This document shows positions 24,633-61,779 of a stretch of DNA of 64,000 bases, piece by piece. Each line of letters starts with the position of its first letter. The first letter of the stretch is position 1. The DNA is from Malacoraja senta (lineage: Eukaryota): NCBI GenBank assembly GCA_038087875.1, contig CM075987.1, forward strand, positions 25,112,001-25,176,000, written 5' to 3'. Below the pieces are notes generated by a model. The model had not been told where the DNA came from and did not search any database. It was given only the letters and a program-made list of their open reading frames with translations. Made by a program: the position numbers and the translations under genes.

Positions 24633-26108
24633 AGACTAAGTAGAGATTTCTATTAGATAAATATTCAAACAACTGCAAAATTTTAATTAAATCTGGCTCA
24701 TTACTCACAATTAAATCTAATGTGGCATCGTGGCGTTTTGGTTCCTGGATTTATTGGATTACAATTTCCCCTGCTCCCACAGAAGCGCATTAAATGTTTG
24801 CTTTGTGAGGGGACAAGAACGGTTTGGAAATAGATAAGTACCTGAGCCCTTACTGGATAAGATTTTCCGGCGCTAAGGCCCGTCTTCCGGAAGCCTAGCA
24901 CCAAAGATCGGATAAGTCTGGAATGATTGTTTGGAATCGTGGGGTGGCACCTTGGTGTCGAGGTTGAAAGGTGAAAGGTGAAGGGGTCAGCTGCCCGTGA
25001 TCACTGATGTGATGGTTGATTGGTTGGTACTGGGTGGGTTATCTGGAAGAAGGGTCTCAACCCTAAACGTCACCCATGCCTTCTCTCCGGAGATGCTGCC
25101 TGTCCCGCTGAGTTACTCCAGTTTTTTGTGTCTATCTTGGGTTATCTGCAAGGTATTGCAAATCGTGAAGAAGGTTGACCAAAGTCAAAGGTAGACAAAG
25201 GGAAAATGCTGGAGAAACTCAGCGCGTGCGGCAGCATCTATGGAGCGAAGGAAATAGGCAACGTTTCGGTTCGAAACCCTTCTTCAGACCAAAGTCAAGC
25301 TTGGTAAGTGGGCCAAGGAATGGCAAATGGCGTTCAATTCAGATACATGTGCGGCGTTGCATTTGAGAACTCAAACCAGAACAGGAGCTTCACGGTGAAT
25401 ATGAGGGCCGCTGTACGTCTGTTACTCCCTTCAACACAAGGTTGTTGTTGCTGGATCCATTGTTAGTTTTAAGCCTGAGATTAATACACTCTTGTTAATC
25501 ACACATGTAAAGCTGGCATAGAATGATGAAAAACGAGGACACAGATCCACCATGATTTCATCGAGTCATTAAATAACCTTGGTGTGTTTTGATGATGACT
25601 TATTGTAACTACCTCGTGATGTTCTAACGGCCCCATCACAAAGTCTCTAATTAAAGATTTTACCATATCGCCCACTGCTGATGTTGAGCTAATGTTGATG
25701 TTGAGTTCATACAGCTAGAATTAAACGACGTTGCTTCAGGAAGGAGATCAGGAGCAATTCTTTAGTCAGAGGGTGGTGAATCTGTGGAATTCTTTGCCAC
25801 AGAAGGCTGTGGAGGCCAAGGCAATGGATATTGTTAAGGCAGAGATAGATAGATTCTTGTGTAATAAGGAAGATAGACACAAAAAGCTGGAGTAACTCAG
25901 GCAGCATCTCTGGAGAGAAGGAATGAGTGACGTTTCGGGTCGAGACCCTTCTTCAGGTTCAATAGATTCAATAGGAAAGATTGTTGATTAGTACGGGTGT
26001 CAGGGGTTATGGGGAGGAGGCAGGAGAATGGGGATGAGAGGAAAAGATAGACTAGCCATGATTGAATGGTGGAGCAGACGATGGACCGATTGGCTTAATT
26101 CTGCTCCT

Positions 26109-26598
26109 TTTTTTTTTCTTCTTTTTTTTCTTTTTTTTCAGCGAATGCAAAGTCCTTTACCCATGCAGTTGCCTCTTGTTCTGCTGTATGAAGGGCGACA
26201 AGTCCTCCTTTAAGTCTTTTTTGAGGGCATGAGAGTTGGGTCAGCCAGGTTAGAGCTCAGGGGCCCAGGTGTTTCATGAACTCTGGAGAGATGTTATCAT
26301 AACCTGCTGCCTTTCCACATTTCAGGCCCTGCAGGACCTTCTCCAGTTCAGCCACCTCGAAGGGCTCAGGGTTTCTTTCCTTTCCAGGTGTTCGTCGAAG
26401 TGTTAGTATTCGGAGAGCAGGTCCAACAGCCAGGTGCTCTTGAGGCTGGTCGTTGTTGCTGCTTTCGGCTTTGGGATAATGACTAGGATTCTTTGACTTG
26501 GCTCTCAGGCGTCGTCTTGTAGAATTTAGTCTGCTGGTAGGATCATTGGCTTCCCCAGGTGAGCCTGGGTACTGACGGGGGGCGCGACTAGAACACTG
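26109..26598 (-). mobile_element. Internally deleted Ingi/Vingi-like non-LTR element with poly(A) tail
   Basis: TSD ATTCTGCTCCT (26098-26108, 26599-26609); poly-T 26109-26138; RT-start remnant PFEVAELEKVLQGLKCGKAAGYDNISPEFMKHLGP*ALTWL (about 26240-26370); Pr77-like 5' end. Confidence 0.75.
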
Positions 26599-26600
26599 AT
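26540..26600 (-). ncRNA. HDV-like ribozyme of Ingi/L1Tc (Pr77) type, 5' P1 strand missing
   Basis: Minus strand ATCA-GTG-TTCTAGT-CGC-GCCCCCC-GTCAGTA-CCCAGG-CTCA-CCTGGG-GAAGCCAA-TGATCC, read as P2, P3, L3, P3', P1', J1/4, P4, J4/2, P2'. Confidence 0.75.
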
Positions 26601-26624
26601 TCTGCTCCTATCGCATGACCTTAT

Positions 26625-49116: not shown

Positions 49117-49294
49117 GGGGGTCAAGGAAAGAGCGTTCACGTCGCGGCCCTGTTTCCACCAATCTTTCCACCACCACGCACAGGAAGCACAAGAAGCGCG
49201 AGACAGACACCATTGTACGCAGATGCCGAGAAGTGTGTTCAGCTCTGGCTGAATAACTTCTAATCTTGTGTGTGGACTCGATAAGAAGAAGAAG
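49117..49294 (+). mobile_element. Short non-autonomous retroelement (family B) headed by a minimal HDV/CPEB3-like ribozyme, (AAG)n tail
   Basis: Inserted in a V-SINE tail; TSD-like TTCAGAGAT/CTTAGAGAT; homologous to 61488-61657; ends CGATAAGAAGAAGAAG. Confidence 0.85.
49118..49169 (+). ncRNA. Putative minimal (P4-less) HDV/CPEB3-like ribozyme
   Basis: P1 GGGGTC/GGCCCT, P2 GGAAAGA/TCTTTCC, P3 GCG/CGC, L3 TTCACGT, linker GTTTCCA, J4/2 CCAA (C49159). Confidence 0.8.
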
Positions 49295-59632: not shown

Positions 59633-59794
59633 CGTGAAGCAAGATAAAAGTAAATACTCTTAATTTGTCTGCACAATTGAAGTAAATGCAGTGTGGTCCC
59701 AGTCAAAATCTACATCGGAGCAGAGTTCAAATGCTGTCAACTCCCCTTGATCAGATGGGGCTCATGTTGTTGAACCTCCCCGTGGTGAGCCCTG

Positions 59795-60145
59795 TCAAGT
59801 CAAGTCAAGTCAAGTCACTTTTATTTCTATAGCACATTTAAAAAACAACTCTCGTTGACCAAAGTGCTTTACATCGGTGGAGGTACTAACGTTATACAAC
59901 AGTGGTTCATAGATTAAGTACATACATAAATACATACACATAGCCCTCCCTCAGAGGACGTCAAGAAAGGCTTGGGAGTAAAGATGAGTTTTAAGTCTTG
60001 ACTTAAAGGAGTCGATGGAGGGGGCAGTTCTGATGGGAAGGGGGATGCTGTTCCACAGTCTAGGAGCTGCAACCGCAAAGGCGCGGTCGCCCCTGAGCTT
60101 ATGCCTAGACCGCGGGATGTTCAGTAACCCTCAGTCTGACTGGCC
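59795..60145 (-). mobile_element. L2-clade LINE 3' fragment with (CTTGA)n tail
   Basis: Minus strand GDRAFAVAAPRLWNSIP..FKSRLKTHL; TGTAAAGCACTTTGG..GTGCTATAGAAATAAA. Confidence 0.85.
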
Positions 60146-61289: not shown

Positions 61290-61487
61290 TTGTTACCAAC
61301 AGGTCCATGGGAAGATGTTGCTCTAGATTTTCCACCTCCATCAGGAAAATCAATACTAGTTGTGATCGATTACTACAGCAGATATTGTGAGTATGCAATA
61401 GTGAAGACTACAACATCGGAAAAGACCGTAGTGGCTTTGATGGAAATATACGCAAGACAGTGTGACAATGGGCCTCAGTTCATTCCT
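61290..61487 (+). pseudogene. Degenerate Gypsy integrase core fragment
   Basis: LPTGPWEDVALDF..ILVVIDYYSRY..DNGPQF. Confidence 0.8.
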
Positions 61488-61657
61488 GGGGTCAAGGAAA
61501 GAGCGTTCACGTCACGGCCCTGTTTCCAACAATCTTTCCACCACCACGCACAAGAAGCGCAAGAAGCGTAAGAAACACCATTGGATGCAGATGCCGAGAA
61601 GTGTGTTCAGCTTTGACTGAACAGCTTCTAATCTTGTGTGTGGACTCGATAAGAAGA
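61488..61657 (+). mobile_element. Family B ribozyme-headed retroelement, second copy (ribozyme mutated)
   Basis: TSD AGTTCATTCCT (61477-61487, 61658-61668); starts exactly at GGGGTC; (AAG)n tail. Confidence 0.88.
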
Positions 61658-61779
61658 AGTTCATTCCTTAGAAGTTGGCTGACTACATGAAGAACAGCGG
61701 TGCGTACCATCACAAAGTGGCTTAAAAATGTTTCAATCAATTGCCCTCTCACTCTTCTGAACTGCGGCAGGGTCAAACC

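What the first reader, a model, noticed from the sequence alone, without database searches (positions are those of the whole stretch)
26109..26598. Internally deleted Ingi/Vingi-like element with a Pr77-type HDV ribozyme, retrotransposed as a 490-bp unit
Seen on the minus strand: P3 GTG/CGC, P1' GCCCCCC, GTCAGTA, P4 CCCAGG-CTCA-CCTGGG, GAAGCCAA, P2' TGATCC; then a short RT-start remnant (LKCGKAAGYDNISPEFMKHLGP), a 3' end, poly(A) and an 11-bp TSD. Established: trypanosomatid ingi/L1Tc carry a 5' HDV-like ribozyme, with (as I recall) ..AGTACCC..GGGGAAGCCAA.., and give rise to deleted RIME/NARTc derivatives. Inference: a vertebrate RIME-like derivative, about 10-15 nt 5'-truncated so that the P1 5' strand is lost. 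It shows the Ingi/Vingi lineage is present in this genome and may represent the P4-containing ancestral state of the minimal ribozymes.
Basis: partly seen in the sequence, partly recalled or inferred. Interest (0 to 1): 0.78.

Follow-up and report, generated by a model that had tools for sequence, protein, structure and literature searches.

The report
Dead copy of ribozyme-headed LINE derivative
This is a broken copy of a short parasite of a jumping gene whose RNA starts with a self-cutting ribozyme; that ribozyme is a close relative of the one in the mammalian CPEB3 gene, which hints at where the mammalian one came from.

Summary
Window 26109-26598 (minus strand) is a retrotransposed 490-bp unit with an 11-bp target-site duplication and an A-rich tail.

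Other copies in the same genome share both deletion junctions. 33 of 34 places extend further 5', and 21 of 34 start GGGGG[A/G][C/G], which supplies the missing P1 strand. The window copy is exactly 14 nt 5'-truncated, so it cannot fold P1 or P2.

The parent is a ~3.1-kb LINE with one ORF (endonuclease plus reverse transcriptase, no RNase H hit). Its ATG lies inside the 73-nt HDV-like ribozyme.

The fold covaries in diverged relatives: 96% of cells paired, and 12 of 16 pairs changed on both sides.

The only Rfam family matching these 5' ends is the CPEB3 ribozyme, below its threshold. Published Repbase Vingi 5' ends carry the same core, so Vingi membership is well supported. An RT phylogeny could not be run. 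Self-cleavage is inferred, not shown.

I found no paper in the library searched that assigns a ribozyme to Vingi or links CPEB3 to it.

Two further ribozyme-headed retroposon types lie in the window.

The parts
26599..26609 (.). Target-site duplication, copy upstream of the element's 5' end (AGGAGCAGAAT)
   Evidence: exact 11-bp repeat abutting both ends
26540..26598 (-). Ribozyme remnant, nt 15-73 of the 73-nt HDV-like ribozyme. It holds the last 2 nt of the P2 5' strand, P3 (GTG), L3 (TTCTAGT), P3', P1' (GCCCCCC), J1/4, P4, J4/2 and P2' (TGATCC). The P1 5' strand and 4 nt of P2 are missing. It also differs from the family majority at P3 (GCG to GTG), L3 (TTCTCGT to TTCTAGT) and L4
   Evidence: model R1 scores it 72 bits with non-pairs in P1
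26404..26598 (-). 5' segment of the parent (unit nt 1-195): ribozyme remnant plus the start of the ORF
   Evidence: in long copies nt 1-195 is followed by 938-1144 bp that the unit lacks
26232..26403 (-). Internal segment (unit nt 196-367) from the linker and RT start of the parent ORF. The open remnant is 26257-26400
   Evidence: identical to ...LRRTPGKERNPEPFEVAELEKVLQGLKCGKAAGYDNISPEFMKHLGP of the L041 frame
26132..26231 (-). 3' segment (unit nt 368-467): the last ~100 nt of the parent
   Evidence: 1273-1482 bp lie between nt 367 and 368 in long copies
26109..26131 (-). A-rich tail. Most other copies have (TAAA)n here
26098..26108 (.). Target-site duplication, copy downstream of the tail

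Best explanation
The stretch is a dead-on-arrival copy of a ~467-bp non-autonomous derivative of a ~3.1-kb Vingi-like LINE. The derivative arose from the parent by two internal deletions. [quoted passage not shown] Inferred mechanism: the ribozyme folds as it is transcribed and cuts just 5' of its first G. This removes any upstream host sequence and leaves an RNA whose 5' end sits inside the compact fold. The single ORF (APE endonuclease plus RT) starts at an AUG at ribozyme nt 9-11, so its translation would have to be cap-independent. The protein then copies RNAs that carry the family's 3' ~100 nt and (TAAA)n tail into nicked DNA, giving 8-13-bp duplications. The deleted unit keeps the 5' ribozyme and the 3' end and is copied in trans. 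In the window copy, reverse transcription or joining stopped 14 nt short of the 5' end. P1 and most of P2 cannot form, so this copy cannot cut itself. Shown: anatomy, copies, junctions, TSDs, 5' ends, covariation and homology. Inferred: cleavage, cap-independent translation and trans-mobilisation.
For: Copies: 19 loci align over unit nt 1-467 at 93.6-96.6% identity with unrelated flanks. TSDs of 8-13 bp were found for 14 of 25 loci examined, and in L005, L006, L008 and L030 they end right at the G run. 5' ends: 21 of 34 distinct places start GGGGG[AG][CG], and 33 of 34 extend beyond the window copy's 5' end. Parent: long copies of 2.9-3.1 kb hold one frame with Exo_endo_phos/Exo_endo_phos_2 and RVT_1 and no other Pfam hit. 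The frame reads through the ribozyme from ATG. Relatives at 55-61% identity keep the N-terminus MDQRSRR. Fold: on a model-fitted alignment of own and diverged ribozymes, 96.2% of 132 cells pair, against 70.5% in shuffles (0 of 500 as high) and 41-55% with slid partners. 12 of 16 pairs change on both sides. In my hand-drawn fold of 8 sequences, 161 of 167 cells pair, and the P2 sequence differs in every lineage. Ribozymes sit 280-350 nt upstream of the APE start, on the coding strand, in metagenome loci L048, L064, L066, L092, L095 and L097. One also sits in a second family of this genome at 43% protein identity, L136. Rfam: the CPEB3 ribozyme is the only family hit, in 4 of 6 intact loci at 18.7-25.8 bits. 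L095 and L064 hit HDV-F-prausnitzii at 33.1 and 30.9 bits. Vingi link: the 5' ends of Vingi-2_Gav, Vingi-4_Crp, Vingi-1_BF and a stretch of Vingi-2_SPur, as printed in the supplement of PMC5786205, share AGCGTTC(A/T)CGTCGCG and GTCAG.
Against: No cleavage assay exists. All Rfam scores are below the gathering thresholds (25.8 against 35; 33.1 against 44). Most copies have an A.C mismatch at P1 position 6 (19 of 22). RNAfold energies are no better than shuffles (z from +0.6 to -1.4). The alignment behind one search was fitted to the model and holds 3 junk rows. The segments were chosen by eye. My loose motif scan was not specific overall (44 hits against 65 in shuffles). Model R1 found ribozymes in only 2 of 80 metagenome loci with default filters. 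Of about 12 loci with enough upstream DNA, about half gave none. A defined 5' end could also come from an internal promoter, as in L1Tc Pr77. Clade assignment lacks an RT tree.
Confidence: 0.82

Rival explanations
1. The conserved 5' 73 nt is a 5' UTR, internal promoter or N-terminal coding module, and the ribozyme-like fold has no catalytic role. The uniform 5' end would then come from transcription initiation at G1.
For: The ORF reads through the segment. The L1Tc Pr77 stretch is a promoter as well as a ribozyme (abstract and passages of PMC3383444). Most copies carry a P1 mismatch. Rfam scores are below threshold.
Against: Compensatory changes keep P1, P2, P3 and P4 while the sequence, and the peptide it would encode, change completely between lineages. 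A promoter or a coding constraint does not predict that. The core is near-identical to CPEB3, a proven self-cleaver.
Confidence: 0.1
2. The parent is a member of the RTE clade or another compact single-ORF clade, not Vingi. HDV-like ribozymes are already reported for RTE.
For: RTE elements are also ~3.2-kb single-ORF APE+RT elements that give bipartite non-autonomous derivatives and carry predicted ribozymes (PMC5786205 passages). No RT tree was made here.
Against: The 5' end shares a 13-15-nt core and GTCAG with four Repbase Vingi families. A conserved C-terminal CxCG..T..H....C motif is present; that RTE lacks such a motif is recalled, not tested. Junction motifs are shared with L1Tc of the sister clade Ingi.
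Confidence: 0.08

Closest known systems
Vingi clade LINEs and their internally deleted derivatives (Kojima et al. 2011, not held here; Kojima 2018, PMC5786205)
   Same: Compact single ORF with APE and RT, no RNase H. About 3.1 kb, against 3128 bp for Vingi-2_Gav. Non-autonomous copies made by internal deletion. The 5' end shares the core AGCGTTC(A/T)CGTCGCG...GTCAG, and shares the P4 loop CTCG with Vingi-1_BF.
   Different: P1 and P2 strands differ, and the changes are compensatory. The ATG lies inside the ribozyme. The tail is (TAAA)n. [quoted passage not shown]
Mammalian CPEB3 ribozyme (Rfam RF00622)
   Same: HDV-like fold. P3-L3-P3' matches in 12 of 13 nt. J1/4 is GUCAG in both. J4/2 is GC(C/G)AAU. 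It is the only Rfam family hit.
   Different: CPEB3 is a single-copy intronic element of mammals, whereas this is the 5' end of a mobile element. P2 and P4 sequences differ. The score is below gathering.
L1Tc/ingi Pr77-L1TcRz with NARTc/RIME derivatives (PMC3185411, PMC3383444)
   Same: HDV-like ribozyme in the first ~77 nt of a LINE of the sister clade. Deleted non-autonomous partners keep it. TSDs are 11-12 nt. AGTAC and GGAAGCYAA motifs are shared.
   Different: Ingi has RNase H and a trypanosomatid host. The P1 and P3/L3 sequences are unlike. RIME and NARTc are bipartite, whereas this unit has three parts.
HDV-like ribozymes of R2 and RTE elements, and drz-Spur-3
   Same: 5'-terminal self-cleaving ribozyme that processes a LINE RNA. 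The drz-spur-3 primers show L3 TCCCCGT, as in L048 and in window 59757, and GCCAAT in J4/2, as here.
   Different: Different clades and, for R2, a site-specific rDNA context. The key paper (Ruminski 2011) could not be read here.

Membership tests
HDV-like self-cleaving ribozyme | 7-bp P1 that begins at the cleavage site, which is the RNA 5' end | tested here: met
   GGGGGAC/GCCCCCC pairs 6 of 7, with A.C at position 6. GGGGGGC pairs 7 of 7 in L040 and L042. Positions 5-7 covary in relatives.
HDV-like self-cleaving ribozyme | 3-bp P3 closing a 7-nt L3, directly followed by the P1 3' strand | tested here: met
   GCG-TTCTCGT-CGC-GCCCCCC. Two of three P3 pairs change on both sides.
HDV-like self-cleaving ribozyme | P2 pseudoknot between the stretch after P1 and the 3' end | tested here: met
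   GGATCA/TGATCC. Helices of 4-8 bp with unrelated sequences in 7 lineages, 46 of 47 cells paired, with segments chosen by eye.
HDV-like self-cleaving ribozyme | Catalytic C in J4/2 and P1.1 | tested here: inconclusive
   C(G/C/T)AA is present in J4/2 in 7 of 8 sequences and absent in L048. P1.1 would be a single pair, as reported for L1TcRz. Neither was tested.
[quoted passage not shown]
   RNA reads gave no pile-up of starts.
CPEB3 ribozyme (RF00622) | Score at or above the Rfam gathering score of 35 bits | tested here: not met
   18.7-25.8 bits in 4 of 6 loci. The P4-less element of the window scores 31.9 bits.
CPEB3 ribozyme (RF00622) | Single copy in an intron of CPEB3 in mammals | tested here: not met
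   Here it is the 5' end of a dispersed repeat.
Vingi clade | Single ORF with APE and RT, no RNase H, about 3 kb | tested here: met
   Homologues are about 1000 aa on 3.1-3.5-kb contigs.
Vingi clade | RT domain groups with Vingi references | not testable with these tools
   No Repbase references are on hand. The nearest solved structures are L1 ORF2p and R2.
Vingi clade | 5' end like the Repbase Vingi consensus sequences | tested here: met
   Compared by eye with strings printed in the supplement of PMC5786205.
Ingi/L1Tc (Pr77) | RNase H domain after RT | tested here: not met
   No Pfam hit besides RVT_1 in the C-terminal 388 aa at E<=0.01.
Ingi/L1Tc (Pr77) | The 77-79-nt signature sequence | tested here: inconclusive
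   Only two short motifs are shared, read from published primers.
RIME/NARTc-type bipartite non-autonomous LINE | Only the 5' and 3' ends of the parent are kept | tested here: not met
   A 172-nt internal piece is also kept. Other variants in the genome are bipartite, holding nt 1-195 plus 368-467.

The most novel reading that the evidence does not exclude
The mammalian CPEB3 ribozyme is an exapted 5' end of a Vingi LINE, or of a Vingi-derived SINE, and Vingi elements across deuterostomes start with CPEB3-type ribozymes. Nt 2-41 of Vingi-2_Gav match human CPEB3 at 37 of 40 positions, and 13 of 13 further positions match at the 3' end. This includes both strands of P2 (GCAGAA/TTCTGC), whose sequence is free to vary in this family. 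The Vingi-derived part of the alligator SINE2-1_AMi matches at about 56 of 68 positions, including the P4 stem. These are my hand counts. [quoted passage not shown]
Probability: 0.7. Interest if true: 0.8.

Novelty: new member of a known kind. Interest (0 to 1): 0.64.

Why it matters
HDV-like ribozymes at LINE 5' ends are known for R2, RTE, LOA, R1, R4 and Ingi. This finding adds the Vingi lineage in a large animal genome, with diverged families and derivatives. It also shows a start codon embedded in the ribozyme.

The wider value is the bridge it gives. The same core links trypanosome L1Tc, Vingi elements of amphioxus, sea urchin and crocodilians, this genome's families, and the CPEB3 ribozyme, whose origin is open and which has lacked outgroups. 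That makes the origin of CPEB3 directly testable.

It may also matter for engineered Vingi-1 gene-insertion systems, which keep the native 5' UTR according to a 2026 review.

Tried and rejected
- **Rfam on the window.** The gathering-score scan gave 0 hits. At E<=10 around the copy there were only chance hits and no ribozyme.
- **Covariance-model search of the own genome.** The tool does not offer this, so I used a pattern search, which it does offer. That found one family only.
- **Loose regex scan for P3/L3/P1.** It was not specific (44 hits against 65 in shuffles) and served only to point at candidates.
- **MAFFT alignment of diverged ribozymes.** It put P1, P2 and P4 out of register. I therefore used hand-set segments and a model-fitted alignment.
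- **RNAfold.** z-scores were not significant.
- **Sequencing runs.** No RNA holder was listed.
- **Laid raw RNA reads.** Depth was low over the 5' and 3' parts, zero over the middle of the ORF, and there was no pile-up of starts. This says nothing decisive about cleavage.
- **PDB.** Only L1 ORF2p and R2 came back as distant relatives.
- **Papers not held.** Kojima 2011 and Ruminski 2011. What they say about Vingi 5' ends or ribozymes is therefore unknown to me.
- **drz-Bflo-2 sequence.** I looked for it in two papers and one supplement and did not find it.
- **Earlier scan notes.** None were relevant.
- **L137 and L138.** These lie upstream of two other diverged families; the model found no ribozyme.

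Full report
**Observation.** Read on the minus strand, the element runs from 26598 to 26109. It is flanked by AGGAGCAGAAT at 26609-26599 and at 26108-26098. Window 26400-26257 translates to LRRTPGKERNPEPFEVAELEKVLQGLKCGKAAGYDNISPEFMKHLGP*. No Rfam family reaches its gathering score in the window. The copy itself gives no ribozyme hit at E<=10.

**Copies in the own genome.** The window lies in a 1.94-Gb genome. A DNA search listed 50 matches out of 353 first-look candidates. Nineteen loci align over unit nt 1-467 in one piece, at 93.6-96.6% identity, with unrelated flanks. So the doubly deleted unit has itself been copied many times.

TSDs of 8-13 bp were found for 14 of 25 loci examined. In L005, L006, L008 and L030 the duplication ends right at the run of G. 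L004, L007 and L022 have 1-4 extra bases there. Most tails are (TAAA)n, whereas the window copy has an A-rich tail.

**The missing 5' end.** Among 34 distinct places whose match reaches unit nt 10 or less, 33 continue further 5' than the window copy, with ...ATGGAT or a close variant of it. Of these, 21 begin GGGGG[AG][CG]. The window copy is therefore 14 nt short.

The full ribozyme is 73 nt:
- P1: GGGGGAC/GCCCCCC
- J1/2: TAT
- P2: GGATCA/TGATCC
- P3: GCG/CGC
- L3: TTCTCGT
- J1/4: GTCAGTA
- P4: CCCAGG-CTCG-CCTGGG
- J4/2: GAAGCCAA

P1 has an A.C mismatch at position 6 in 19 of the 22 intact copies I aligned. The exact core pattern occurs 48 times in the genome, against 0 for the reversed control, and all 48 are of this family.

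**Parent.** Long copies span 2.9-3.1 kb: unit nt 1-195, then 938-1144 extra bp, nt 196-367, then 1273-1482 extra bp, nt 368-467. They hold one long frame with Exo_endo_phos/Exo_endo_phos_2 and RVT_1 and nothing else at E<=0.01. There is a conserved C-terminal CxCG..T..H....C motif. The frame opens at an ATG at ribozyme nt 9-11 and reads through the ribozyme as MDQRSRRAPRQYPGSPGEANDP. A protein search of the genome shows many copies at 93-100% identity, most of them broken or partial, with open frames of up to 994 aa. It also shows diverged families at 43-45% identity.

**Relatives elsewhere.** 883 proteins matched at E<=1e-5. The best are about 1000 aa on 3.1-3.5-kb contigs, at 44-63% identity. 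P0002, P0024 and P0025 keep the N-terminus MDQRSRR. Many others start MI(Q/L)P or MLPPA, which is the reading of the ATG in ...AATGATCC (J4/2-P2').

In 80 metagenome loci, model R1, built from 22 own copies, found two ribozymes with default filters (L048, L066). With filters off on 16 loci it also found L095 and, weakly, L064. A loose scan that was not specific overall (44 hits against 65 in shuffles) pointed to L092 and L097. All six lie 280-350 nt upstream of the APE start, on the coding strand.

Rfam's HDV-F-prausnitzii model hits L095 (33.1 bits) and L064 (30.9 bits), below its gathering score of 44. A second family in the own genome at 43% protein identity carries a ribozyme at the same relative place: P1 GGAGGAG/CUCCUCU and P2 AAAGACA/UGUCUUU, scoring 25.2 bits. 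Two other upstream stretches gave nothing.

**Covariation.** On a model-fitted alignment of 11 rows, three of which are junk, 96.2% of 132 cells pair. Shuffles give 70.5% (0 of 500 as high) and slid partners give 41-55%. 12 of 16 pairs change on both sides, and the covariation score is 0.536 against 0.181. In my hand-set fold of eight sequences, 161 of 167 cells pair against 38-49% when slid, and P2 is a different 4-8-bp helix in each lineage. The segments were chosen by eye, which favours pairing. RNAfold recovers P1 and P4, but its energies are not better than shuffles.

**What it resembles.** On six intact loci the only Rfam family found is the CPEB3 ribozyme, in 4 of 6 at 18.7-25.8 bits against a gathering score of 35, with best E 0.0046.

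The supplement of Kojima 2018 (PMC5786205; passages seen) prints the 5' ends of Vingi-2_Gav, Vingi-4_Crp and Vingi-1_BF, a stretch of Vingi-2_SPur, and the Vingi-derived part of SINE2-1_AMi. All carry GGGGCCAT..AGCGTTC(A/T)CGTCGCGG..CCC(T)GTCAG..GCGAAT. Our family shares the 13-nt P3-L3-P3' exactly with Vingi-1_BF, and also GTCAG and the P4 loop CTCG.

[quoted passage not shown] Reverse-complementing the L1Tc primers printed in PMC3185411 shows AGTAC after P1' and GGAAGCTAA before P2', as in our J1/4 and J4/2. L1Tc TSDs are 11-12 nt.

**CPEB3.** Human CPEB3 primers are printed in PMC5984629. By my hand count, Vingi-2_Gav matches 37 of 40 positions up to GTCAG and 13 of 13 at the 3' end, including both P2 strands. 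SINE2-1_AMi matches about 56 of 68, including the P4 stem. [quoted passage not shown]

Searches for Vingi with ribozyme, for the CPEB3 ribozyme with retrotransposon terms and with SINE, and passages of the hits, showed no statement linking them. Kojima 2011 and Ruminski 2011 could not be read.

**RNA.** No RNA holder was listed. Laid raw RNA reads cover only the 5' and 3' parts, thinly, and show no start pile-up. A DNA contig shows the 1143-bp skip that makes the nt 195/196 junction.

**Verdict.** This is a confirmed, well-read finding. [quoted passage not shown] Cleavage and clade placement still need the tests named under the next steps.

Noticed in passing
window 49117-49294 (+) and 61487-61660 (+): A ~177-bp retroposon that starts with a P4-less CPEB3-like ribozyme: P1 GGGGGTC/GGCCCT, P2 GGAAAGA/TCTTTCC, L3 TTCACGT. 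It ends in (AAG)n, and the second copy has the TSD TTCATTCCT. Rfam's CPEB3 model scores it 31.9 bits (E 1.2e-5), below gathering. The genome gave 1810 first-look candidates, and the 40 that were scored are 95-100% identical and all start at nt 1-3.
   Followed up: partly
window 59757-59828 (+): A third ribozyme type: P1 GGGGCTC/GAGCCCT, P3 ACC/GGT, L3 TCCCCGT, like metagenome locus L095. It is followed directly by (GTCAA)n. Model R1 scores it 17 bits, E 0.013. It may be an extremely deleted derivative.
   Followed up: no
window about 25930-25990 (-); also flanks of L004, L005, L016, L024, L042: An abundant SINE-like repeat with a hammerhead-like core, CTGAAGA-GGGTCTCGACCC-GAAAC. Rfam gave no hammerhead hit at E<=10. 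Three copies of the LINE derivative (L004, L005, L016) are inserted at nearly the same spot of this repeat...CTCCAGCA(C/T)T.., which hints at a target preference.
   Followed up: partly
L031, L048 and most own copies; Vingi-2_Gav string: P1 position 6 is a mismatch in three lineages: A.C here and in L048, and C.A in the printed Vingi-2_Gav consensus. Positions 5 and 7 covary normally. Whether this tunes cleavage is unknown.
   Followed up: no
L014:1440-1500: One copy has a 5' end with 12 G followed by GGAC repeated three times before the normal sequence. This suggests slippage or template switching at the RNA 5' end.
   Followed up: no
L136:233-320 (-): A second LINE family of the same genome, at 43% protein identity, carries its own HDV-like ribozyme with fully compensated P1, P2, P3 and P4.
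   Followed up: partly
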